DNA of 27,799 bases, taken from Candidatus Shapirobacteria bacterium (GTDB taxonomy: Bacteria; Patescibacteriota; Microgenomatia; UBA12405). Shown one piece after another: positions 1-9,665 of this stretch (within the stretch, counting starts at the first letter, position 1; every line of letters starts with the position of its first letter). The stretch covers positions 1-27,799 of the forward strand of contig JBAYMA010000001.1 in the NCBI GenBank assembly GCA_041663805.1, read 5' to 3'. A program made the position numbers and the translations under genes. Below the pieces are notes generated by a model that did no database searches, was not told the origin of the DNA, and was given only the letters and a program-made list of their open reading frames with translations.

Positions 1-857
1 CCACCGCAACTTCCTGCAGTTCCAGCACACGTCCACGTATAGGTAAAATCAGCATTAGTGCTCACTGAAGGCTGACTTCCATCAGCACATAAAGGATTTT
101 GAGTTATTAAATTAGTAGTAGCAGGTGCTGTTCCAACTCCCATGGACCAATGCATTGTTCCAGCTGCAGCTCCACAAACTCCATTTGTTCCATTTGTAGG
201 CACACAATTTGGAGTACAAGGTACACTTCTAACTCTGTTTCCATCTACAATATATCCACCCGGACATTGTCCATTGCGATATATATCTACTGCAGTAAGA
301 AATCCTCCGTTTATTGCCGCCTCAGGATAACCAGCTGCATCACAACAATATTTATAAACTCCAAGAATACTACAATGACAGTCACTAGCATACAAAAATG
401 TATCTCCTATATTCTTTAATTTATCTCCCAACGAACAATCAAGGCTGGTTATCCATTGAGGTACACAATTAAGTCCATTTAAAATATCACTATTTCTATT
501 TACACAAGTAATTTTACTTTTTGTCCAATTACTATAACTACTAGTACAACAATCACTTTTATCTGAACCACAAAAACCAATTCCACAATTTCCAATATTA
601 TTATTTCCCTTATAACACATATCCTCAGCTCCAATACAATCGTTAGCACAATTTATGTCTTGGATACATTTATTTCTACAACAATCATTAGAGTTGTTTA
701 TTAAACACAACTGGTATATATCTGCCAAATTGCATGTAATAATTGTATATGGGTAAGAAGACAATTGACAAGTAACAGCTGCTTGAACTTTTATTGTTCC
801 TATTGTCAACCAAATAACCAATCCAATTATTAATTTTAAAATAATTTTATTTCTCAT
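1..857 (-). CDS. Cys-rich secreted/surface protein, truncated by the left edge of the window (absent from the ORF track)
   Basis: Manual translation from ATG at 857-855 (ATGA overlap with the stop of 854..1375): MRNKIILKLIIGLVIWLTIGTIKVQA-AVTCQLSSYPY...NGVCGAAAGTMHW...LCADGSQPSV...WTCAGTAGSCG. No stop before base 1; signal-peptide-like N-terminus; 27 Cys in 285 codons. Confidence 0.88.
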   Translation of the reverse strand, partial: MRNKIILKLIIGLVIWLTIGTIKVQAAVTCQLSSYPYTIITCNLADIYQLCLINNSNDCCRNKCIQDINCANDCIGAEDMCYKGNNNIGNCGIGFCGSDKSDCCTSSYSNWTKSKITCVNRNSDILNGLNCVPQWITSLDCSLGDKLKNIGDTFLYASDCHCSILGVYKYCCDAAGYPEAAINGGFLTAVDIYRNGQCPGGYIVDGNRVRSVPCTPNCVPTNGTNGVCGAAAGTMHWSMGVGTAPATTNLITQNPLCADGSQPSVSTNADFTYTWTCAGTAGSCG

Positions 858-1375
858 TTACTTAACAACTTATCAATTAACTCATTTTTTAATTTTATTT
901 CATTTTCAAAGTTCTCCCAGTTTTCTTCGTTTATTTTTGGAGCAATATTAACAGTTACATCAATTTTTTCACCCTTTTTAATTTCAGCCAAAATCTGCCC
1001 TTTTTTAACCACTTTTGTTTTACACTCAAGGATACCCTTTTCAAACATTATTATATAAGTATAAACTTTATCATTTGTTTTACCTTCTATTAAGAAGGCA
1101 TTTTCCATTCTGTTATTTATAAAATTAGAAACAGTTGCAACACTGCAATTTCCATCAATTGGGGAATAAATTTTTGTCTCTTCAATTGTTGTAAAAAACA
1201 ATTTTCCACTATAAAAATCCTTAGTTTCAATTTTTTTACAATATTTATTTTCAAACAACAAACAGCTTCCTGGTTTAATCTCAAAAACTTGATGTAACCA
1301 TATCTTGTCCACCACCAAAAATCCACCAACTATAATCAAAAATATAACTATTCCAAATAAAACCAACCTTTTCAT
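854..1375 (-). CDS. Membrane-anchored protein with degenerate peptidase M23/LytM-like hybrid motif
   Basis: N-terminal hydrophobic anchor; IYSPIDGNC and VVKKGQILAEI resemble the M23 scaffold segments; no HxxxD or HxH zinc ligands. Confidence 0.55.
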   Translation of the reverse strand: MKRLVLFGIVIFLIIVGGFLVVDKIWLHQVFEIKPGSCLLFENKYCKKIETKDFYSGKLFFTTIEETKIYSPIDGNCSVATVSNFINNRMENAFLIEGKTNDKVYTYIIMFEKGILECKTKVVKKGQILAEIKKGEKIDVTVNIAPKINEENWENFENEIKLKNELIDKLLSK

Positions 1376-1426
1376 AAAATAGTTTACCTGTTTTCACTCA
1401 AAAAGTGTATATATCAAAGAATTAAG

Positions 1427-1470
1427 CCCTCCATTTTCAAGGGAGGGTACCCGCAGGGTGGGTGGGTTTT
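1427..1470. repeat. GC-rich intergenic hairpin element (REP/short dispersed repeat-like)
   Basis: ccctcc(1427-1432)-attttcaag-ggaggg(1442-1447) stem followed by tacccgcagggtgggtgggtttt; strongly GC-rich against an AT-rich background; shares ttcaagggRgg...gggttttg with 17701-17738. Confidence 0.65.
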
Positions 1471-1478
1471 GAAAAAAC

Positions 1479-2558
1479 TTAATTATTAGAAACCACAAAC
1501 ACTGGCACTTCATTAAATTTTAATATATTATCAAAAGATTGTTTTTTAATTACTTCAATAGTTTGAACCATTCCAGGTATACAACCTTCTAATATTGGTT
1601 CATTTGTTTCTCCAAGTTTATCTCCCATCACTACATTAATTATTCTTATTTTTCGATCTATAAAATTTGAATTAATAACTACAAATTCCATTTCCTTACC
1701 ATCAATATATTCACTACTGTTTTGACATAATTCAGTCCGATTAATTTCCTGACCAGTAGACATCGAACTTGATTGATACATATTTGTTTCTCTAGGAAGA
1801 ACATTAGTTACATCAATTGTTTCGCTTCCAAAAGAAATTTGGATAAAATATGGACCATCAACCAAAGTTCCTTCAGAATTAATCGCTAAATTAACATTTT
1901 CTAAAGTTGTTAAATCAGAAATATCAGCTGCTAATGGCATTAAGTAACCATTTTTAGCTGTTGGTAATTGTTCATTTAATATTTTTTCAGCTTCTGATCC
2001 AATCAAAGCAATTCCTCCAACTTCTGTCACTTCTCCATTTTCATCTGTCTGAGTAACTTCTTTTTTATATTCTCCTATATAAACTCCATCTCTTTCATAA
2101 GTTACTCTTTTAAGACCATTAATTTCTTTAATTACTTTTTCAGCTCCTTCAATATCTGGAGCCAATTCCATTTTTTCTTGTAAATCTTTTTTTTCCTGTT
2201 GTTCTGGAGTTAATGGTACTTCAGTAGGTGTTGGGGTAGGGGCTTCAGTTGGTGTTGGGGTAACTTTAACTGTAGTTTCTGTTGGAGTTACTGTCACACT
2301 TGGTTCAGTCTCACTAGATTCAACTGTAGCTTCTGTTTCAATAATTGGTTGAGGATTAACTTCACATCCAGTAACAGCTCCAGCTCCAGTTGCTATTGTA
2401 AAAGCAGCTATTCCAGCAGCAAACCTTCTTTTAAAAGCATCTCCGAATTTTTTTTCTTTTGGTTTTGGATTAGATTCTTGTCTAGTTGTATCTTGAACCG
2501 AATCGACTATTTTCCCAATTTCTCTCTCTGTAAATTGTTGTGGTGCACTTTCTGCCAT
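1479..2558 (-). CDS. Putative lipoprotein with Pro/Thr-rich linker
   Basis: KRRF, then a hydrophobic Ala/Gly stretch, then lipobox VTGC (C65); TPTPTE repeats; C-terminal domain not recognised. Confidence 0.65.
   Translation of the reverse strand: MAESAPQQFTEREIGKIVDSVQDTTRQESNPKPKEKKFGDAFKRRFAAGIAAFTIATGAGAVTGCEVNPQPIIETEATVESSETEPSVTVTPTETTVKVTPTPTEAPTPTPTEVPLTPEQQEKKDLQEKMELAPDIEGAEKVIKEINGLKRVTYERDGVYIGEYKKEVTQTDENGEVTEVGGIALIGSEAEKILNEQLPTAKNGYLMPLAADISDLTTLENVNLAINSEGTLVDGPYFIQISFGSETIDVTNVLPRETNMYQSSSMSTGQEINRTELCQNSSEYIDGKEMEFVVINSNFIDRKIRIINVVMGDKLGETNEPILEGCIPGMVQTIEVIKKQSFDNILKFNEVPVFVVSNN
2220..2262 (-). repeat. 24-bp-period tandem duplication encoding TPTPTE linker units
   Basis: ttcagtaggtgttggggta (2220-2238) and ttcagttggtgttggggta (2244-2262), 18/19 identical. 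Confidence 0.8.
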
Positions 2559-2683
2559 TTTTTATTTTTAAATTATTAATTTTTTTATTATTTTATCCAT
2601 CTCTGACGGAAACCTATAATATTAATTTAATTAAGGAAATAATATAACACCCAACCCATAAAGTCAAGAAAATCTATAAAATT

Positions 2684-2704
2684 TTAATTTCTGACTGACA
2701 CATC
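2684..2704. repeat. Direct repeat copy 1: displaced duplicate of the 3' end of the 4030..4515 pilin gene
   Basis: ttaatttctgactgacacatc matches 4030-4050 ttaatttctcactgacacatc at 20/21; both read D-V-S-V-R-N-stop on the minus strand. Confidence 0.9.
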
Positions 2705-2706
2705 AA

Positions 2707-3387
2707 CTATAATCTCATTCTTAATTCCAATAAAACATCTTCTTTTAAATGTTGCCTGACAAAATCTTTAGTTGAATTATCTATTAAATCACCTAAACCA
2801 AATAGTATCTGATTAGTTTTAATTTTTTCTATTCTAGAAATTGCCATTTCAATAATTTCTTTTGTCCCTAAACCACTTTTGCTTTTTATCACTTCATCAT
2901 CTATCTCCCAACCATTTTTCAAAAAATACCAAATATCAAAAACATCTCGATTAGCCATTTTTGTTCTAGTTGCTAAAGCTAATAATTTTCCAGCTACCAT
3001 TGCCTCTCTATTCATCACCAGCATCGAAATCCCCAAATAATTCATCACCACAAAATTGGTTTCTGTTTTTACGCGAGTTATTTCAATTTTTAGTTTTCTC
3101 TCTTCAAATCCATAGTCAAGTAAAAAAAATATAGTATTTTTTTTGACAACACTTTCAACTATTTTGCCATGTTTTTCAATTATCATTTTTACTCTATCAA
3201 AAACCAAAGATTCATTATTTTTATCTAACAAATCAAAGTCCAAATCAACCGATTCTCTGGGTAAATCATAAAATAAATAGGCCATAGTTCCACCTTTAAA
3301 ACCCAATATTTTTCCTAAATCTTTATCTGCATAAAAATCTTTTAGAATTCTAACCATTATTAATTTGTGTTTTTCGGGATTAAACAT
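2707..3387 (-). CDS. abiEii: AbiEii/AbiGii-family nucleotidyltransferase toxin (type IV TA)
   Basis: FKGGT...Y.LPRESVDLDF nucleotidyltransferase signature; GKLLAL..R..MANRDVFDIWY C-terminal motif; overlaps the upstream partner by 8 nt. Confidence 0.9.
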   Translation of the reverse strand: MFNPEKHKLIMVRILKDFYADKDLGKILGFKGGTMAYLFYDLPRESVDLDFDLLDKNNESLVFDRVKMIIEKHGKIVESVVKKNTIFFLLDYGFEERKLKIEITRVKTETNFVVMNYLGISMLVMNREAMVAGKLLALATRTKMANRDVFDIWYFLKNGWEIDDEVIKSKSGLGTKEIIEMAISRIEKIKTNQILFGLGDLIDNSTKDFVRQHLKEDVLLELRMRL

Positions 3388-3964
3388 GATCTTTTTTGTA
3401 TAAATTATAATAACTCATAATTCTTTTAGTCATTGCTTTACTTTTATATATTTTTGCCAAATCTAATACCAAATTCCAATCTAAAATATTAAGATTATCA
3501 AAATGATAATCACGATATAAATAAACAGCATCAGTAAGAGCTCTTTCTTTTGAAGCTACAAAATAGTTATTATATCTTTCTATACCCAAATTATTTAATA
3601 ATATTTCATTTTTTAGTCGTCTATAACCTATTTTATTATTTCCAACCTTTAACTCTCGACTGACATGAGAAATAGTGAATATAGTGTCATATTTCTGAAA
3701 AATAACCCCTTCTTTTGCCAAAATAGTTTCCAAACTAACATAAGATGGAGTATAAACTTTACAAGCTAATTCTAAAAGGCTAAAATTATTTTTAGCCAAA
3801 ATACCCCTAATTGGATTCATCAATTTTTCTTTTTTAACTAGATTATTTACTCTTCTCTTTAAATTCACATATTTTATTTCAGGAAACATAAGAGACAATT
3901 CTTTTAAAGAAAAAACTGTCTGCGATAACTTATATAAAGTATTTAAAATATCTATTTTTTTCAT
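3380..3964 (-). CDS. abiEi: AbiEi-like antitoxin/transcriptional regulator (N-terminal winged helix)
   Basis: VFSLKEL...LVKKEKLMNPIRGI winged-HTH-like segment, PSYVSLETIL..EGVI and ASKERALTD.VY motifs typical of AbiEi-like partners; directly upstream of abiEii. Confidence 0.82.
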   Translation of the reverse strand: MKKIDILNTLYKLSQTVFSLKELSLMFPEIKYVNLKRRVNNLVKKEKLMNPIRGILAKNNFSLLELACKVYTPSYVSLETILAKEGVIFQKYDTIFTISHVSRELKVGNNKIGYRRLKNEILLNNLGIERYNNYFVASKERALTDAVYLYRDYHFDNLNILDWNLVLDLAKIYKSKAMTKRIMSYYNLYKKDHV

Positions 3965-3971
3965 ATATTTG

Positions 3972-4017
3972 TACTGGAAGTAACATAATATGTTACCAAC
4001 AGTAGATTTTTTGTCAA
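3972..4017 (-). promoter_or_regulatory. sigma70-type promoter of abiEi with overlapping inverted-repeat operator
   Basis: Minus strand TTGACA (4017-4012), 16-nt spacer, TGg-TAACAT (3998-3990); palindrome tactg-N3-gtaacata-a-tatgttac-N3-cagta spanning 3972-4004. Confidence 0.7.
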
Positions 4018-4029
4018 GTAATTTAATTC

Positions 4030-4050
4030 TTAATTTCTCACTGACACATC
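4030..4050. repeat. Direct repeat copy 2 (last 7 codons of the pilin gene, including the stop)
   Basis: 20/21 identical to 2684-2704; the single difference is synonymous (GTG vs GTC, Val). Confidence 0.9.
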
Positions 4051-4515
4051 CAAACTAAAATTTTGACTTACACTTACACCTGCTGTTGTTGTTCCTACTC
4101 CAAAATTAAATTTAACACTCGTCACCCCTAGAGCAGGGGATTCAGTACAAGAAACAAAGTTAGTACAATCAGTTACATTGACCTGATTATTAGTTAAACT
4201 TCTGACTAAGGAACCCGAAGTTGAGGCAATATTATTGTTTCCACAACTAAATACTGTACTTCCATTATCATCAAGATTAGTCATTCCAATAGAAACATTA
4301 TTAATACAATTTATTTGTGTACCACTACTATTCAACACATTTTTCTTCAATTCATTCATAATCCAATTACCATTTTGAACCACCTTATTGGTCGATTTAT
4401 TTCTATTTTGTGATTTAAAAATCCCCAAAGTTATTCCCGTTATAGCTGTCATTATTAACCCTGTTGAAGCCACCACCACAATCATTTCAATCAATGTAAA
4501 ACCTGTTTTTTTCAT
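4030..4515 (-). CDS. Minor pilin/pseudopilin, PilW/PulJ-like
   Basis: MKKTG|FTLIEMIVVV class III signal; longer alpha1 helix and beta-rich C-terminus; follows a PilV/PulI-like gene. Confidence 0.8.
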   Translation of the reverse strand: MKKTGFTLIEMIVVVASTGLIMTAITGITLGIFKSQNRNKSTNKVVQNGNWIMNELKKNVLNSSGTQINCINNVSIGMTNLDDNGSTVFSCGNNNIASTSGSLVRSLTNNQVNVTDCTNFVSCTESPALGVTSVKFNFGVGTTTAGVSVSQNFSLDVSVRN

Positions 4516-4516
4516 T

Positions 4517-4912
4517 TTAATTATTCCTTGAAAAAAATCTATTAACCGTCATACTCTTATCTCCCCAAGAAACTATTACCGAAGTATCGGCACATTCTTT
4601 ACGAACAGCACTACACCCTCCATTAGTTTTTTGAACATAGTTAACTGCATAAGTATAACCACTAAATGTTGGTAAGGTCTGTCCTGCCGCTATATTCTCT
4701 AAAAGCCAAAAATTTTCCGGATCTGATTTTTGGGTACTAATCAAATTTTCTATTACTGCTTCAGCTAAACTACTAGCTGTCTTTCTTTGAAAAGCATTTG
4801 TTTTAATACTAACCGTACTAATAATCAATGCCACTACTCCAGTTATTACCAATACCACTATTGCCACCGAAAAAACTACCTCAATTAAACTTTGGCCTTT
4901 TTCAGTTTGCAT
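4517..4912 (-). CDS. Minor pilin/pseudopilin, PilV/PulI-like
   Basis: MQTEKG|QSLIEVVFSVAI class III signal with Gln at +1; C-terminal VIVSW motif. Confidence 0.8.
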   Translation of the reverse strand: MQTEKGQSLIEVVFSVAIVVLVITGVVALIISTVSIKTNAFQRKTASSLAEAVIENLISTQKSDPENFWLLENIAAGQTLPTFSGYTYAVNYVQKTNGGCSAVRKECADTSVIVSWGDKSMTVNRFFSRNN

Positions 4913-5360
4913 TAATTGTTCCCAAATCAGTAATTATCACCGTTTTAGTTGCGCTTCCTGAAACCCCTATACTTATCGGACCATTTATAAAAGTTCCATT
5001 TATATCAGTTAATCTACCCGTACCTACAGCAAAACCAAAAGAAGTAGCTGTTAAAGTTAAATCATTCATTGAATCAATTTTTTTACTAAAATAAAGAGTA
5101 CTACTATTATTTACTTTGGCTGTTATTGTTCCATTAGCCAAAGTTGTTACTCCCACATATACCAAATCATTACCACCGCTAGGTAATTGACCAGTAACTG
5201 CCATATTCTTAGCTAACTTTATTTGATTAACTAATTCATCTGTCACTGTTTCCAGCTTTTTAGAATTTGAAAAATTATTTATGTAAACAGAACCAATTCC
5301 CATCAAAACCATCACAATTACTACTGTAACTATTAACTCTACTAAAGTAAAACCTTTCAT
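4902..5360 (-). CDS. Minor pilin/pseudopilin, FimT/PulH-like
   Basis: MKG|FTLVELIVTVVI; L...I.LA..MA helix; C-terminal F...TG motif and ITDLGTI hairpin. Confidence 0.8.
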   Translation of the reverse strand: MKGFTLVELIVTVVIVMVLMGIGSVYINNFSNSKKLETVTDELVNQIKLAKNMAVTGQLPSGGNDLVYVGVTTLANGTITAKVNNSSTLYFSKKIDSMNDLTLTATSFGFAVGTGRLTDINGTFINGPISIGVSGSATKTVIITDLGTINAN

Positions 5361-5361
5361 A

Positions 5362-5754
5362 TTAAGGATTAACTACTTTGTAATTACAATTAGCCACTGG
5401 ATTATTAGTCGAACCCAAATCTTCAACTACTGCACAAACTTGATAAGTATTGGTTGTTAACCCAGTATAGGTATAAATAAGTCCAGTTTTCGGATCTTTA
5501 GGCCATTGTTGTAAATAAGTTGGTACTAAAATAGTTTGAACAGTACTGGTAGTAGGATAAGTATTACCCACTTGTCTAGCTGCTTCCAAAGAAATTCTAA
5601 TTTTTTCTAAATCAGCCATTCTTCTAGCATCACGAGATTTTTTACTTATTCCTCCAAAACTAATCACTGCTATCGCCGTCATTACGGCAATAATTGAAAT
5701 ACTTACTAATAATTCAAATAAAGTGAACCCATTTTTTTTATTTATTCTTTTCAT
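5362..5754 (-). CDS. Type IV pilin, PulG-like
   Basis: NG|FTLFELL; KSRDARRMADLEKI helix; P.DP motif; C-terminal Cys pair. Confidence 0.88.
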   Translation of the reverse strand: MKRINKKNGFTLFELLVSISIIAVMTAIAVISFGGISKKSRDARRMADLEKIRISLEAARQVGNTYPTTSTVQTILVPTYLQQWPKDPKTGLIYTYTGLTTNTYQVCAVVEDLGSTNNPVANCNYKVVNP

Positions 5755-5757
5755 AAT

Positions 5758-6183
5758 TTATTGTTGATTTTGAACACAAAAATAATTAACCTTATTAGCA
5801 AACCCACAAGTAGCATTTTCGGCATTACTATTTTTTGTATTTTCCATTAATGCACAAACACAATAAGTTGTAGTACTAACTCCAGAAACTAAATAATTAG
5901 AACTATCTTTTGGATCCACTGGTACTTTATTTAAAACTGTTTGACCATTAGCTACCCAAGAAGGAGAAGTCGCTCTATAGTAATTGACTGAATTTGGATA
6001 ATTTCCACTAAGTAATATCATCTGTTCAGCTGCATTTTGAATTGATTTAAGATCACCGATTCTTCTTTGATCTCGACCATCTTTTTGAATTTTAGAAAAA
6101 CTAACCGCTATTATCATTGATAAAATCCCAATAATTGAAATAGTAATCAATAATTCAACTAACGTAAAACCTTTATTTTTCAT
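5758..6183 (-). CDS. Type IV pilin, PulG-like
   Basis: MKNKG|FTLVELL; GRDQRRIGDLKSI; PVDP; four C-terminal Cys. Confidence 0.88.
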   Translation of the reverse strand: MKNKGFTLVELLITISIIGILSMIIAVSFSKIQKDGRDQRRIGDLKSIQNAAEQMILLSGNYPNSVNYYRATSPSWVANGQTVLNKVPVDPKDSSNYLVSGVSTTTYCVCALMENTKNSNAENATCGFANKVNYFCVQNQQ

Positions 6184-6671
6184 GGTAGGGAATCAAGATT
6201 GGCATTTGAACTAGTAATTACATAACAACAACCCGTAGTAAAACTATTGTAACTAGGACAATTATCTTTTAAATGACAATCCTTATCTTTTTCATTTTCT
6301 AAATTAGCATACAATCTAAATGATTTACTCGTTCCTGAAACTTCATAAAGAAAAGGTCTCATTGAACTTACTGTTTCTCCAGGCATTTTTTTCATATAAA
6401 TTACACTCCCTACACTAAATTCACCCTGACTACCCATTAATGTATTAATATTAATACCAACATTATCCGGATAAGATCCAAAATCACCATAATACATATT
6501 CAAAGCATCAGCCACTGATTTTAAATTAGCTTTTCTAGCCGCATCTCGCGATTTTTGTTGTGATCCATAAAAACTACTAGCAACTATTACCGTTAAGATT
6601 CCCATAATCGAAATCACTATCAATAATTCAATCAATGTAAAACCATTTTTTTTATTTATTTTTTTAATCAT
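6180..6671 (-). CDS. Type IV pilin, PulG-like (start revised from 6761 to 6671)
   Basis: MIKKINKKNG|FTLIELL; KSRDAARKANLKSV..AL..YY.D..SYP; the revised ATG lies just past the stop of 6673..7098. Confidence 0.88.
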   Translation of the reverse strand: MIKKINKKNGFTLIELLIVISIMGILTVIVASSFYGSQQKSRDAARKANLKSVADALNMYYGDFGSYPDNVGININTLMGSQGEFSVGSVIYMKKMPGETVSSMRPFLYEVSGTSKSFRLYANLENEKDKDCHLKDNCPSYNSFTTGCCYVITSSNANLDSLP

Positions 6672-6672
6672 T

Positions 6673-7098
6673 TTAATTACTACAAACTGCATAAACCTTA
6701 TCTTGTGGATCTCCAATTCCACAATTAGTCTGTGAATTAATATCATCATTACCTGCTCCACTATCCAATATAGTTGTCATTCTAAAACTATCTGTTCCGT
6801 TTGGTTGAGTATAAATAAAACTAGTATCACCGATACTAGATATATAACCAGTAAAACCAGACCCTAGAATAATAGCCTTACTTACAGGATAACTTTGGTT
6901 ATCGTTATAATACATTCTCAAGCCATTTTTTAAACTATTTAAATCTTGCATTTTTTTAGAATCTTTAGCTCTTTCTCTAGCTCCAACTATATTCATCATC
7001 AATACCGCCGCTAATACTCCCATAATCGAAACCACTACTAATAACTCTATTAAACTAAATCCTGTTTTTCGACCAACATAGCCATATTTATTTTTCAT
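6673..7098 (-). CDS. Type IV pilin, PulG-like
   Basis: RKTG|FSLIELL; RAKDSKKMQDL..L...L.MYY.D..SYP; C-terminal Cys pair. Confidence 0.88.
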   Translation of the reverse strand: MKNKYGYVGRKTGFSLIELLVVVSIMGVLAAVLMMNIVGARERAKDSKKMQDLNSLKNGLRMYYNDNQSYPVSKAIILGSGFTGYISSIGDTSFIYTQPNGTDSFRMTTILDSGAGNDDINSQTNCGIGDPQDKVYAVCSN

Positions 7099-7532
7099 AT
7101 TTTAATTACCACCGATTCTAATTTATTTATAAAACAATAACTTTGGTTATTACATATTTGTTCTATTTTTTTACAATCTACATCAGATTTATTTTCCAAC
7201 TCTGCAAAAAAAGTAAAAGTCTTTCCATCTGCACTCGCTTGATAACAAAATTCTTTATTTAAAAAATTTTCTTTAGGAACTTTGGCCATATAAGTATACC
7301 CATTATCTATCCACGGTTTACCCCACAAACTGTTAATAATCTCATCACTGGGTAATTCACCATAATCAGCGTAATAAAGACGAATTGCTTTAGCTACCTC
7401 GTTTAAATTTGCTCTTCTATCAACATCTCTAGATTTTGCCTTTGCCAAATTAAATTGATTAAAAGTTATCCAACTTAAAATTGAAATTACAATTATTATT
7501 ATTAGTATTTCCAACAAATTAGAACTTTTCAT
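7095..7532 (-). CDS. Pilin-like protein with atypical prepilin cleavage site
   Basis: MKSSNLLEIL (no G|F) followed by a hydrophobic helix and the same KSRD..RR..L.....I..YY.DY core as its neighbours. Confidence 0.75.
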   Translation of the reverse strand: MKSSNLLEILIIIIVISILSWITFNQFNLAKAKSRDVDRRANLNEVAKAIRLYYADYGELPSDEIINSLWGKPWIDNGYTYMAKVPKENFLNKEFCYQASADGKTFTFFAELENKSDVDCKKIEQICNNQSYCFINKLESVVIKI

Positions 7533-7560
7533 TACTTTAATAATAATACATTTTTATTTT

Positions 7561-8217
7561 TTATTCTTCATTACAACCACTACCACAACATTTCCAGACA
7601 CAACCAGCCTCACATCCACTAGAGTAATAACAAGTACCATTACTACTTAGATCACAACTTCCAATACCACCATCACAATGACCGCCTGTCCACATAGAAC
7701 AAAGATTTTTATTACAATTATCATTCAAAATAGTTTCATACCATAGTATATTTGAACTAGATACCCCAAAATTTGCCGTATCTTTAGTAAAACCAACTAA
7801 ATAATATTTATCTTCACTGGTATACCATTCAGTTGGAATATCTTTATCTAATTTATTTTCCAAATTTGTTACCACCTTAAAACTACTAGGACCAGAAGCC
7901 ATACTATAAACCTGACCATCTGGATCACATGGCCAATTTTTTATATAACCATCAATACCAGCAATATGTTCACCACAATTACCAACTACATTCCAAGTAT
8001 TAATATCTGTTGCAGTTGGATAAGTTTTTTTGTCATTGTAATATTCTTCAAAAGCAATTTTAATTTTATTCAAATCACTTTTTCTTCTGGCATCTTTAGC
8101 TCTTCCAATTAAAGCAATCGGATTAATAATACCTATTAAAATAGTCGCCATTGCTACCAAAATTGCTATTACTATTAAAAGTTCTGCCAATGTAAAACCA
8201 CGATTATTTCTTTTCAT
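7561..8217 (-). CDS. Type IV pilin with Cys-rich C-terminal module (start revised from 8250 to 8217)
   Basis: MKRNNRG|FTLAELL; INP...RAKDARRKSDL; 10 Cys in the last ~50 aa. Confidence 0.85.
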   Translation of the reverse strand: MKRNNRGFTLAELLIVIAILVAMATILIGIINPIALIGRAKDARRKSDLNKIKIAFEEYYNDKKTYPTATDINTWNVVGNCGEHIAGIDGYIKNWPCDPDGQVYSMASGPSSFKVVTNLENKLDKDIPTEWYTSEDKYYLVGFTKDTANFGVSSSNILWYETILNDNCNKNLCSMWTGGHCDGGIGSCDLSSNGTCYYSSGCEAGCVWKCCGSGCNEE

Positions 8218-8225
8218 ACTTAATA

Positions 8226-9011
8226 CTATATACCAAATACTAAATGCCAAATACTATTTCCCCAAAACCAAGCTACCAAAGTCCCTAAAATTAAAAAAGG
8301 TCCAAAAGGTATTTGGGCTTTTCTTTTTATTTTTTTAAAAACCAATAAAACCAAACTAACTAAAGCTCCTACTATAAAGGCTACATAAAAAGCGATTACT
8401 ACTTTAGGATAACCTAAAAATAATCCCATAAAAAAGGCAAATTTTACATCTCCTATACCCATACCTTTACCTTTAGTAATTAAATTTAATATTAATAAAA
8501 ATCCCATCGAAGCTAATGCCACCAAAAAATAATTCCATTCACCAAAATGTCCCAAAAACCAAAATACCAAAGCACTAATAATTAATAATATTGTCACTAC
8601 GTCTGGCAAAATCATATATTTCCAATCAAACACTGCACTAAAAACCAATAAAACAATTATTAATAATCCCAATCCACATTGTAATGGTGATCCTTGTAAT
8701 TTTCCTATAGAAAAATAAATTACAAATAAAATTCCCATCATCAATTCAATTATAGGGTAGAGGATTGGCAAATTTTTTCCACAACATCTAGTTTTTCCTT
8801 TCTGAATTATCCAAGACAATATTGGAACATTTTCATACCATTTCAATTGTTTACCACAAAAATCACAAAACGATCGGTTTTTATTTAAAATATTTATTTT
8901 TTTATTTTTCAGAATACCATACTTCTTTGCAGTTCGATAAACCAACATATTTACAAAACTTCCCAAACACAACCCAAGGGTAAAAACTAATATTATAAAT
9001 AAAATTACCAA
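8226..9011 (-). CDS. pilD: Prepilin peptidase (A24A) with N-terminal Zn/methyltransferase domain
   Basis: GSFVNM..YR, RSFCDFC, WYENVPILSW..QKG..RCC, FDW...ILPD, GMGIGDVK, IPFGPFL. Confidence 0.96.
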   Translation of the reverse strand: MVILFIILVFTLGLCLGSFVNMLVYRTAKKYGILKNKKINILNKNRSFCDFCGKQLKWYENVPILSWIIQKGKTRCCGKNLPILYPIIELMMGILFVIYFSIGKLQGSPLQCGLGLLIIVLLVFSAVFDWKYMILPDVVTILLIISALVFWFLGHFGEWNYFLVALASMGFLLILNLITKGKGMGIGDVKFAFFMGLFLGYPKVVIAFYVAFIVGALVSLVLLVFKKIKRKAQIPFGPFLILGTLVAWFWGNSIWHLVFGI

Positions 9012-9017
9012 TTTAAA

Positions 9018-9665
9018 TTAATTGATTAAACCTTCTGGTACGCACAATAAATTAGCATCAGTGGCACTAATTACATCAGTCCAAGTAGCTGGAACTGTAC
9101 AACCACCTACTGCTTGATCAATCAAAGTAGCAGTAGCAGCAGCACCTCCAATAGTACTAACACCGCTAATACATTTTAATTGAACATTATCTGCCTTTCT
9201 ATTTGCTTTAGCTGCTGGATGAAAACAAACATAATTAGAACCAGAAGTTCCATTATGAAAAACATACATTTTATTAGATTCCAAAACACCAGCTACAAAA
9301 GATTCTTTTCCCTTAAAAGATCCTTTAAGTTCAGAAGTTGATATTAAATCTCCATCAGTTGAACCTTGATCTCCAATAATTCCAAAACGATAATCTAAAC
9401 TTTCAAAAGCTACATCTGCTGTTTTATCTATAACTGCTTGAGTCCCGACATTCCAAGAATAACTAGTTTGAGATGCATAATATCTTTCAATTGCACTTAA
9501 CACTTCAGCGGCATCATTTTTAAATTTAGCATCACGAGCTTTATTTGTTTGTTCAATAGGATTAATAGTTGCTAAAACTGCTACTGATAAAATTGCTATC
9601 AAAGCAATAACGATCAACAATTCTACTAATGTAAAACCCTTCTCAAAAATTACTCTTTTTTTCAT
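9018..9665 (-). CDS. Type IV pilin, candidate major pilin
   Basis: EKG|FTLVELLIVIALIAIL; INP.EQ.NKARDA; first pilin after pilC; four Cys. The major-pilin role is inferred from position. Confidence 0.85.
   Translation of the reverse strand: MKKRVIFEKGFTLVELLIVIALIAILSVAVLATINPIEQTNKARDAKFKNDAAEVLSAIERYYASQTSYSWNVGTQAVIDKTADVAFESLDYRFGIIGDQGSTDGDLISTSELKGSFKGKESFVAGVLESNKMYVFHNGTSGSNYVCFHPAAKANRKADNVQLKCISGVSTIGGAAATATLIDQAVGGCTVPATWTDVISATDANLLCVPEGLIN

What the first reader, a model, noticed from the sequence alone, without database searches (positions are those of the whole stretch)
2684..4050. AbiE toxin-antitoxin cassette flanked by a duplication of the last pilin gene's 3' end
Seen: 21-bp direct repeats (2684-2704 and 4030-4050, 20/21 identical, synonymous difference) both encode DVSVRN-stop and bracket exactly promoter + abiEi + abiEii. 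Weaker similarity continues through the abiEii stop (attatagtt-gat vs attttagtttggat on the minus strand). Removing one repeat plus the intervening DNA (1346 bp) restores an intact pilin gene joined to the lipoprotein upstream region. Established: integrative elements that target a gene's 3' end regenerate it and leave the displaced end on the far side. Inference: a minimal integrase-less defence/addiction cassette using a pilin gene as its attachment site, moved in trans or by short-homology recombination, possibly via pilus-mediated DNA uptake.
Basis: partly seen in the sequence, partly recalled or inferred. Interest (0 to 1): 0.8.

Follow-up and report, generated by a model that had tools for sequence, protein, structure and literature searches.

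The report
AbiE cassette inserted with target duplication
A two-gene toxin-antitoxin/phage-defence cassette (AbiE) with no mobility gene was inserted right after the last pilin gene of a tiny groundwater bacterium and duplicated that gene's last 21 bases, a scar also seen around about a fifth of related cassettes and so far described only for restriction-modification genes.

Summary
2684-2704 and 4030-4050 are a 20/21 direct repeat that occurs nowhere else in the 570-kb genome. It brackets exactly promoter + abiEi + abiEii (1325 bp). Assemblies from several samples (JGI, ENA, two Logan runs) carry the same structure, so it is not an assembly artefact.

The pilin copy is the native gene end, because orthologues in relatives end the same way. 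No relative has abiE at this site. The two closest have a different toxin-antitoxin pair (RelE-type) there.

The 'attachment site' reading is not supported. Among 70 distinct related AbiE loci, 15 have flanking direct repeats. Each repeat is a different local sequence, usually a neighbour's gene end, 14-163 bp long. Controls gave 2/300, 1/70 and 12/500. The units have no inverted ends and no recombinase. Two of 29 RelE/ParE cassettes in the same order show the same scar, so AbiE proteins are probably not the agent.

Four loci re-use the same target in arrays. One pair of metagenome contigs differs by exactly one cassette between its 21-nt repeats.

The closest known case is 'insertion with long, variable target duplication' of restriction-modification genes (Nobusato 2000; Furuta 2010). 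This scan has noted the same AbiE scar before on many other genomes. No same-species empty site was found, and the mechanism remains inferred.

The parts
4030..4515 (-). Last gene of the prepilin-type gene run (161 aa). This is the target gene, and it is intact.
   Evidence: ORF. Weak N_methyl motif match (E 0.0018, 18.2 bits, below the 21.2-bit cut-off). Orthologues in relatives end ..ITVRN*..VTVRD*..VTLRN*..DVSVRN*.
4030..4050 (-). Repeat copy 1: the native last 6 codons plus stop of the pilin gene (DVSVRN*).
3965..4029 (-). Cassette 5' region. It has 12 nt, then -35 TTGACA (4017-4012), a 16-nt spacer and TG-TAACAT (to 3990). The palindrome GTAACATA-A-TATGTTAC (3980-3996) is the likely AbiEi operator.
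   Evidence: Promoter scan, 10/12 match. The TTGACA box and the palindrome are conserved in four genomes while the flanks are unrelated. Inverted-repeat operators of AbiEi are established (PMC7319586 abstract).
3380..3964 (-). abiEi, the antitoxin/autorepressor (194 aa).
   Evidence: PADLOC AbiEi E 1.9e-51. NCBIfam TAA_AbiEi E 2.8e-9, below the cut-off. Pfam AbiEi_4 in 9 of 18 aligned homologues, but not in this protein itself.
2707..3387 (-). abiEii, the DUF1814 nucleotidyltransferase toxin (226 aa). It overlaps abiEi by 8 nt.
   Evidence: Pfam PF08843 E 2.3e-17. PADLOC AbiEii E 2.3e-67. Motifs GGT32, DLDF48, KLLALATR134 and RDVFD147 are intact.
2684..2704 (-). Repeat copy 2: the displaced duplicate of the pilin 3' end (20/21). 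It starts 3 nt after the abiEii stop and is not part of any gene.
2559..2683 (-). Original downstream flank of the pilin gene. It is the upstream region of the next gene and has its own promoter-like site (TTGACT 2667-2662, 17 nt, TATTAT to 2639).
   Evidence: The next gene, 1479-2558(-), has an 81% nt orthologue in G012.

Best explanation
A 1325-bp AbiE module (2705-4029: own promoter with operator palindrome, abiEi antitoxin/repressor, abiEii nucleotidyltransferase toxin) was inserted immediately after the stop codon of the last pilin gene. The insertion duplicated the last 21 bp of that gene, possibly up to about 26-34 bp with decay. The pilin gene stayed intact, and a dead copy of its end sits on the far side, in front of the untouched promoter of the next gene.

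[quoted passage not shown] In this mode a compact addiction/defence cassette with no transposase, integrase or defined inverted ends enters at a gene end through host-driven recombination.

My preferred mechanism is inferred, not shown. DNA carrying the cassette, either taken up through the competence machinery or a small circle excised across such repeats in another cell, is joined at two short-homology points that lie staggered on the target. This could happen by template switching or by fill-in of a staggered break, and the stretch between the two points ends up on both sides.

The flanking repeats then allow loss or gain of the whole unit by recombination. The toxin-antitoxin addiction penalises loss, so the cassette stays fixed in the population.

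What is shown: the anatomy, the uniqueness of the repeat, its recurrence in the family, and a one-cassette presence/absence difference at such repeats.

What is inferred: the direction of the event at this locus, the joining mechanism, and the role of uptake and addiction.
For: Anatomy and significance of the repeat:
- establish the structure and show it exceeds chance.
- Assemblies from several samples agree.

The cassette is foreign and mobile:
- Copies at 69-75% nt identity sit in G035, G007 and G042 (a different family) in unrelated contexts. Homology is limited to promoter through abiEii stop.
- Cassette GC is 25.7% against 29.6% for the window.
- AbiEi of this type was found in only 25 of 132 genomes of the order.

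The pilin end is native, and abiE is absent from this site in relatives.

The scar recurs:
- In G035 the closest homologous cassette lies between two perfect 56-bp copies of the 5' end of the downstream glycosyltransferase gene. That segment is single-copy at the gene start in G022, G019 and G009.
- Over 70 distinct AbiE loci, 15 have a flanking direct repeat scoring >=14 and 10 score >=17. Controls gave 2/300 (cross-locus), 1/70 (inverted) and 12/500 at >=14 with 0/500 at >=17 (random own-genome segments).
- The repeats differ in sequence from locus to locus and measure 19-163 bp by BLAST.
- In 10 of 16 loci (score >=13) the downstream copy starts within -12..+27 nt of the abiEii stop.

No mobility machinery:
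- The units have no terminal inverted repeats.
- No recombinase lies in or next to the unit. The genome has only two Xer-like tyrosine recombinases, on other contigs, and no serine recombinase was found.
- ComEC is present.

Not AbiE-specific: 2 of 29 Phd/RelE-ParE cassettes in the same order have 38- and 29-nt flanking gene-end duplications with the same tight boundaries.

Gain or loss at the repeats: contigs L102/L106 carry a second AbiE cassette exactly between two copies of a 21-nt segment that is single in L105.

Precedent: Furuta et al. 2010 (PMC2853133) describe this mode for restriction-modification units, mostly in naturally competent species.
Against: - No same-species empty site and no circle junction were found. 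Insertion is therefore inferred rather than observed at this locus.
- The duplication is 21-26 bp, shorter than the 30-bp threshold Furuta et al. used.
- Four repeat-flanked loci (G035, G091, G122, L102/L106) show the same target used twice or more with nearly the same boundaries. In G091 the repeats begin with the last 14 nt of an adjacent tRNA-Asn. That fits a site-preferring enzyme, or homologous (Campbell-type) integration of repeat-bearing circles, better than random illegitimate joining.
- The excess of matches beyond the repeat cores is modest: 4.5-4.7 of 12 against 3.4 expected.
Confidence: 0.7

Rival explanations
1. Site-specific integration. A tyrosine recombinase acting in trans uses the pilin 3' end as attB. 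The cassette circle carries the matching core, and the 21-mers are attL/attR.
For: The target gene end is regenerated, as with integrases that target gene 3' ends. Arrays re-use the same target with nearly the same boundaries in G035, G122, G091 and L102/L106. The G091 repeats start with the tRNA-Asn 3' end. The genome encodes two Xer-like recombinases.
Against: Each locus has a different repeat sequence and length (14-163 bp) with no shared core. The cassette has 12 nt before its -35 box and 2 nt after the stop, which leaves no room for arm sites. No integrase lies within or beside the unit here or in the loci inspected. The 21-mer occurs only twice in the genome. The two recombinases look like housekeeping Xer proteins.
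Confidence: 0.12
2. Homologous (Campbell-type) integration. A small circle, or a taken-up fragment, that already carried the cassette plus a copy of the pilin end recombined with the chromosomal pilin end through the 21-34 bp of homology. The duplication is then the homology arm, not a staggered-cut product.
For: This explains identical repeat boundaries in arrays and the one-cassette difference between L105 and L102/L106. A ComEC homologue is present.
Against: It does not explain how the cassette first became linked to a pilin-end copy, so some illegitimate first event is still needed. About 21 bp is near or below the usual minimum for RecA-dependent recombination (general knowledge). No donor with this arrangement other than the same species was found.
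Confidence: 0.12
3. Non-autonomous DNA transposon moved by a transposase that makes long, variable target duplications (IS1630/IS1634-like).
For: Such transposases exist; IS1630 makes 19-26 bp duplications (cited in PMC2853133). The 21 bp seen here falls in that range.
Against: The best inverted match between the first and last 60 nt of 15 repeat-flanked units is no better than in shuffles (mean 6.5 versus 6.2). Duplications range up to 163 bp. Unit ends are not conserved.
Confidence: 0.03
4. Chance similarity or an assembly artefact.
For: In a 30% GC genome, 20/21 pairs do occur. Two other such diagonals exist in the window, one between paralogous pilin N-termini and one in an AT-rich stretch. 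The repeat length equals a common assembler k-mer (general knowledge).
Against: The two copies are not identical, so they are not a k-mer overlap. Assemblies from several samples, made with different assemblers, agree. The copies sit exactly at the pilin stop and 3 nt past the abiEii stop. It is the top score among 91 gene pairs and above all 500 random segments. The same scar recurs family-wide.
Confidence: 0.03

Closest known systems
[quoted passage not shown] 2000, Gene 259:99; Furuta, Abe & Kobayashi 2010, NAR 38:2428, PMC2853133)
   Same: In both cases a compact addiction-type gene unit with no transposase or integrase is flanked by direct repeats of a sequence that is single-copy at the target. 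Repeat length and sequence differ from event to event. The RM cases occur mostly in naturally competent species, and this genome has ComEC. Gene ends can be duplicated or fused.
   Different: The cargo here is a type IV toxin-antitoxin pair with no DNA-cutting enzyme, so the double-strand-break role proposed for the RM enzymes cannot apply. The duplication is 21-26 bp (14-163 bp in the family), whereas the RM cases were selected at over 30 bp. The host is a reduced-genome, Patescibacteria-like bacterium. My library searches found no paper describing this mode for toxin-antitoxin cassettes.
AbiE type IV toxin-antitoxin / abortive-infection system (Dy et al. 2014, PMC3985639; operator work in PMC7319586)
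   Same: It is a bicistronic abiEi-abiEii operon with overlapping genes. The toxin is a DUF1814 nucleotidyltransferase with intact motifs. The antitoxin family matches, and there is an inverted repeat in the promoter.
   Different: Function is untested here. The described AbiE systems sit on plasmids, ICEs or islands, whereas this one is a bare cassette at a gene end.
Integrative elements that target a gene's 3' end (tRNA- or protein-gene att sites) and integron gene cassettes
   Same: The target gene end is regenerated and a displaced partial copy sits on the far side. Some relatives have arrays of cassettes separated by the same repeat. Toxin-antitoxin cassettes with their own promoter are known in super-integrons (PMC2654758).
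   Different: There is no integrase, no attC-like element (only 2 nt lie between stop and repeat), no common core between loci, and repeat lengths vary widely.

Membership tests
AbiE (AbiEi/AbiEii) type IV TA system | Toxin is a DUF1814/AbiEii nucleotidyltransferase with the conserved NTase motifs | tested here: met
   PF08843 E 2.3e-17, 64 bits against a 22.5-bit cut-off. PADLOC AbiEii E 2.3e-67. GGT, DLDF, KLLALATR and RDVFD are present.
AbiE (AbiEi/AbiEii) type IV TA system | Upstream, overlapping gene encodes an AbiEi-family antitoxin/regulator | tested here: met
   PADLOC AbiEi E 1.9e-51 over 181 of 186 profile positions. 8-nt gene overlap at 3380-3387. The NCBIfam equivalog scores only 36.9 bits against a 150-bit cut-off. 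Pfam AbiEi_4 is seen in 9 of 18 homologues but not in this protein itself.
AbiE (AbiEi/AbiEii) type IV TA system | Inverted-repeat operator in the promoter for autoregulation | tested here: met
   An 8+8-nt palindrome at 3980-3996 overlaps the -10 region and is conserved in four genomes. Binding was not tested.
AbiE (AbiEi/AbiEii) type IV TA system | Toxicity, neutralisation by AbiEi, and an abortive-infection phenotype | not testable with these tools
   Needs expression and phage assays.
Insertion with long target duplication (Kobayashi type) | Flanking direct repeats correspond to a sequence that is single-copy at the empty target in a related genome | tested here: inconclusive
   No same-species empty site was found. 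Orthologous pilin genes in other species have one copy of the ..VRN-stop end, but with different downstream genes. The feature is met for family members: the G035 repeat is single-copy in three relatives, and L105 versus L102/L106 differ by one cassette.
Insertion with long target duplication (Kobayashi type) | Duplication longer than transposon-type duplications (Furuta et al. used >30 bp) | tested here: inconclusive
   21 bp at 20/21, or 26 bp at 88%. This is longer than classical duplications of under 10 bp but below the 30-bp cut-off. Family members reach 56, 101 and 163 bp.
Insertion with long target duplication (Kobayashi type) | No mobility gene in or next to the unit, and the repeat is not a multi-copy element | tested here: met
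   Only abiEi and abiEii lie between the repeats. The neighbours are the pilin gene and a membrane/lipoprotein-like gene. The 21-mer occurs twice in the genome.
Insertion with long target duplication (Kobayashi type) | Repeat sequence and length vary between independent insertions of related units | tested here: met
   15 repeat-flanked loci carry unrelated repeats of 14-163 bp.
Site-specific integrative element | Integrase gene carried by or adjacent to the element | tested here: not met
   None is in the unit or its neighbours. The only PF00589 hits are Xer-like proteins on contigs C6 and C14. No PF00239 hit was found. The genome is 85% complete.
Site-specific integrative element | Common att core shared by insertions of related elements | tested here: not met
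   The repeats differ completely between loci.
DNA transposon / MITE-like unit | Terminal inverted repeats and a short duplication of fixed length | tested here: not met
   Inverted-repeat scores equal those of shuffles. Duplication length varies from 14 to 163 bp.
Integron gene cassette | attC recombination site at the 3' end of the cassette and an IntI integrase with attI | tested here: not met
   Only 2 nt separate the abiEii stop from the repeat. No integron integrase scores above its cut-off. attC models were not run.

The most novel reading that the evidence does not exclude
Toxin-antitoxin cassettes in reduced-genome bacteria (AbiE, and also Phd/RelE-type) may form a class of recombinase-free mobile cassettes with quasi-defined ends: about 12-13 nt upstream of their -35 box, and a few nt past the toxin stop. 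They would cycle through excision across their flanking duplications into small circles and re-insert at gene ends. This would re-use targets and stack into arrays, giving integron-like behaviour without an integrase. The pilin-operon end would be one such landing pad.
Probability: 0.17. Interest if true: 0.8.

Novelty: new member of a known kind. Interest (0 to 1): 0.48.

Why it matters
Toxin-antitoxin and defence modules are among the most mobile genes in prokaryotes, yet many sit in chromosomes with no visible vehicle. This case adds to a growing set showing that a bare promoter-to-stop cassette can enter a gene end and leave a long, variable target duplication.

The scar is also present around RelE-type cassettes, and AbiE has no nuclease. 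The process is therefore probably host-driven and general, not a property of the cargo as was proposed for restriction enzymes.

In very compact genomes this mode keeps the neighbouring genes intact. It also creates built-in repeats for later loss, gain or stacking of cassettes, which may be how small defence islands form in organisms that have few classical mobile elements.

Tried and rejected
- **Reads.** No read-level test for an empty site or circle junction was possible. Only Logan contigs were on offer anyway.
- **Genome-collection scan.** The search for related loci in genome contigs with the AbiEi alignment failed because no stretch was conserved enough.
- **Empty-site hunting by exact protein look-up.** The pilin and downstream-gene look-ups returned only cassette-bearing contigs. 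The upstream gene of L087 gave only the same arrangement, and the L076 neighbour is not on record.
- **Possible empty site in L127.** The 385-aa gene after the L127 pilin is unrelated to the window's downstream gene, so this is not an empty site.
- **Possible decayed pilin-end remnant in L131.** It lies beyond the RelE pair at the L131 contig end, could not be told from the antitoxin operator repeats, and the contig stops there. Left undecided.
- **Terminal inverted repeats.** None found.
- **Repeats as a genome-wide REP-like element.** Rejected for the window, G035 and G055. G091 and G122 have three copies, but all lie in one local array.
- **L071.** Its repeat is an internally repetitive TTTACAC array next to two tRNA genes. 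I treat it as ambiguous, not as a clean duplication.
- **Ku.** Only a sub-threshold hit, so end-joining by Ku is not supported, though it is not excluded in an 85%-complete genome.
Full report
**What is there**

All genes in the first 9 kb of the window lie on the minus strand. A run of prepilin-type genes ends with ORF 4030-4515, whose N-terminal methylation motif match is weak. The sequence 4030-4050, its last six codons plus stop (DVSVRN*), recurs at 2684-2704 with one synonymous change. The pair extends to 26 nt at 88% and occurs nowhere else in the 570-kb, 74-contig, 30% GC assembly of which this window is contig C1.

Between the copies lie 1325 bp holding three things:
- a promoter (TTGACA 4017-4012, 16 nt, TG-TAACAT) with an 8+8-nt palindrome at 3980-3996;
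- abiEi (3380-3964);
- abiEii (2707-3387), which overlaps abiEi by 8 nt.

Only 12 nt separate the pilin stop from the -35 box, and only 2 nt separate the abiEii stop from the second repeat. Beyond the second repeat the sequence runs into the promoter-like site and start of the next gene (1479-2558), a membrane-anchored or lipoprotein-like protein with no family match.

**Identity of the cargo**

The toxin matches Pfam AbiEii (E 2.3e-17) and a PADLOC AbiEii model (2.3e-67), and it keeps the nucleotidyltransferase motifs. The upstream protein matches a PADLOC AbiEi model over nearly its full length (1.9e-51). Half of its aligned homologues hit Pfam AbiEi_4. The palindrome and -35 box are conserved in four genomes whose flanks are unrelated. 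This fits the known autoregulation of abiE through inverted repeats (PMC7319586, seen). Function was not tested.

**Is the repeat more than chance or artefact?**

- Shuffles give no second match.
- Among 91 adjacent co-directional ORF pairs of similar size in this genome, the AbiE pair has the single best flanking repeat (17 against a next best of 13).
- None of 500 random segments reaches 17.
- Contigs assembled from other samples carry both junctions at 99.9-100% identity, including the G/C difference. These come from a JGI metagenome, an ENA assembly, and Logan assemblies of a groundwater run and a landfill run. One of them may be the window's own source sample.

**Which copy is native?**

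Orthologues of the last pilin in other species of the genus and in metagenomes end ..ITVRN*..VTVRD*..VTLRN*..DVSVRN* or ..NVAVRN*. The copy at 4030-4050 is therefore the gene's own end, and 2684-2704 is the displaced duplicate.

None of these relatives has abiE after the pilin. They have a Cys-rich secreted protein gene, a pilM-like gene or other genes there. The two closest pilin relatives (66-68% aa; L131, L133) have a convergent RHH-antitoxin/RelE-family toxin pair immediately after the stop. The site is thus a variable spot that takes different toxin-antitoxin cargo, and abiE is specific to this species.

**The cassette elsewhere**

The same cassette at 69-75% nt identity sits in G035, G007 and G042 (another family), inside polysaccharide gene clusters. 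Homology starts about 10 nt before the -35 box and ends at the abiEii stop.

In G035 it lies between two perfect 56-bp copies of the first 56 bp of the downstream glycosyltransferase gene. That segment is single-copy at the gene start in three related genomes.

**Systematic test**

I collected AbiEi-AbiEii loci from 132 genomes of the order (25 have it) and from metagenome contigs, giving 70 distinct loci. For each I scored the best ungapped direct match between the 400 nt upstream of abiEi and the region from -30 to +400 around the abiEii stop.

| Set | Score >=14 | Score >=17 |
|---|---|---|
| AbiE loci | 15/70 | 10/70 |
| Cross-locus pairs | 2/300 | not tallied |
| Same locus, inverted | 1/70 | 0/70 |
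| Random own-genome segments | 12/500 | 0/500 |

Further properties of the repeats:
- Every repeat is a different sequence, usually the 3' or 5' end of a neighbouring gene.
- BLAST extents run from 19 to 163 bp, at 80-100% identity.
- The downstream copy starts within -12..+27 nt of the abiEii stop in 10 of 16 loci scoring >=13.
- In several loci the upstream copy ends 12-13 nt before the -35 box.
- Unit ends show no inverted repeats beyond chance.
- The 12 nt beyond the repeat cores match slightly more often than expected (4.5-4.7 against 3.4). In the window the abiEii end (ATTATAGTT) resembles the pilin sequence just before the repeat.

**Not specific to AbiE**

The same test on 29 RelE/ParE-type pairs from the same order gave two clear cases. 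Their flanking repeats are 38 nt (36/38) and 29 nt (27/29), both duplicated gene ends. In both, the unit starts 13 nt before the -35 box and ends 4-9 nt after the toxin stop. The scar is therefore a property of how small cassettes enter these genomes, not of the AbiE proteins.

**Target re-use**

Four repeat-flanked loci are arrays.
- **G035:** a third, 84%-identical copy of the 56-mer lies upstream of a second, diverged abiE pair, and an inverted third abiE pair lies beyond it.
- **G122:** repeat - AbiE - repeat - (AAA_14-type ATPase plus a 175-aa gene) - repeat.
- **G091:** repeat - AbiE - repeat - (two small ORFs) - repeat, next to tRNA-Asn. Each repeat begins with the last 14 nt of that tRNA.
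- **L102/L106:** a second AbiE-type pair lies exactly between two copies of a 21-nt segment that is present once at that position in contig L105, which is otherwise 92% identical. This is a natural presence/absence difference of one cassette at its repeats. Sequence beyond the shared 47 nt differs between the contigs, so the direction (gain or loss) is not settled.

**Mechanism**

The data exclude several options: a cassette-borne recombinase, a common att core, transposon ends, and a role for a cargo nuclease. [quoted passage not shown] That mode was described for restriction-modification units without other mobile elements, mostly in naturally competent bacteria (PMC2853133; the review PMC3874152). 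My searches found no paper reporting it for toxin-antitoxin cassettes.

The own genome has ComEC, two Xer-like tyrosine recombinases on other contigs, no serine recombinase and no Ku above threshold.

I favour two short-homology joints staggered on the target, through template switching or fill-in, for the first event. Recombination across the resulting repeats would then account for later loss, gain and stacking. The arrays keep a site-preferring enzyme, or Campbell-type integration of repeat-bearing circles, alive as rivals. None of these steps was observed directly.

**Relation to earlier notes of this scan**

After I had reached this reading, a word search of the scan's notes showed 65 notes in at least 64 other genomes, Patescibacteria and DPANN archaea among them. 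They describe AbiE cassettes bracketed by duplicated neighbour gene ends. Follow-up reports name the same closest known mode, and several find the scar at about one in five related loci, which matches my 15/70. These are unchecked AI notes and not independent evidence, but they mean this window is one more instance rather than a first sighting.

This report adds four things:
- the own-genome gene-pair control;
- the RelE/ParE comparison;
- the arrays with target re-use;
- the L105 versus L102/L106 difference.

**Verdict**

This is a real, clean insertion scar around a probably functional AbiE cassette. The 'pilin gene as attachment site' idea should be replaced by variable target duplication at a gene end. 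Interest is moderate for this instance and higher for the general phenomenon.

Noticed in passing
window 1409-1475: A GC-rich hairpin element of about 55-65 nt (ccctcc...ggaggg plus a G-rich tail) recurs at 82-96% identity on other contigs of this genome (C47, C7 twice) and in dozens of genomes of the genus. It is a genus-wide intergenic repeat.
   Followed up: no
L131:1877-2364 and L133:580-872: In the two closest pilin relatives, a convergent RHH-antitoxin plus RelE/StbE-family toxin pair sits directly after the orthologous pilin stop codon. A different toxin-antitoxin type therefore occupies the same site.
   Followed up: partly
L149 (G035:C17) 144-4588: Three AbiE-type pairs lie in a row, one of them inverted. 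Three copies of the first 56 bp of the downstream glycosyltransferase gene separate or flank them (84%, 100% and 100% identity). This is a small stacked defence array.
   Followed up: partly
L146 (G091:C4) 3541-6079: Three direct repeats of 53-96 nt bracket an AbiE cassette and a 938-bp two-ORF unit next to tRNA-Asn. Each repeat begins with the last 14 nt of the tRNA, like stacked att scars, but no integrase lies in the 10 kb inspected.
   Followed up: partly
L165:1149-1776 and L163:1148-1778: Phd/YefM-like plus RelE/ParE cassettes of about 0.6 kb are flanked by 38-nt and 29-nt duplications of the upstream gene's 3' end. The unit boundaries lie 13 nt before the -35 box and 4-9 nt after the toxin stop.
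   Followed up: partly
L144 (metagenome contig of L087) 3127-9407: An AbiE pair plus a 104-aa ORF is inserted among three tandem AAA_14/DUF4143 ATPase paralogues and is bracketed by a 163-bp, 96%-identical repeat of the paralogue's upstream region.
   Followed up: no
window 5726-5751 / 6640-6665, and 3940-3961 / 8882-8903: These are the only other 20/21 direct-repeat diagonals in the window. The first is the shared N-terminal coding sequence of paralogous pilins. The second is an AT-rich stretch and probably chance.
   Followed up: no
L043 (JGI contig) 5702-9080, beyond window base 1: On the longer JGI contig the Cys-rich ORF that runs off the window edge is 647 aa with a dockerin domain. It is followed by a cohesin-domain protein and another dockerin protein, which suggests a cellulosome-like surface assembly downstream of the pilus genes.
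   Followed up: no
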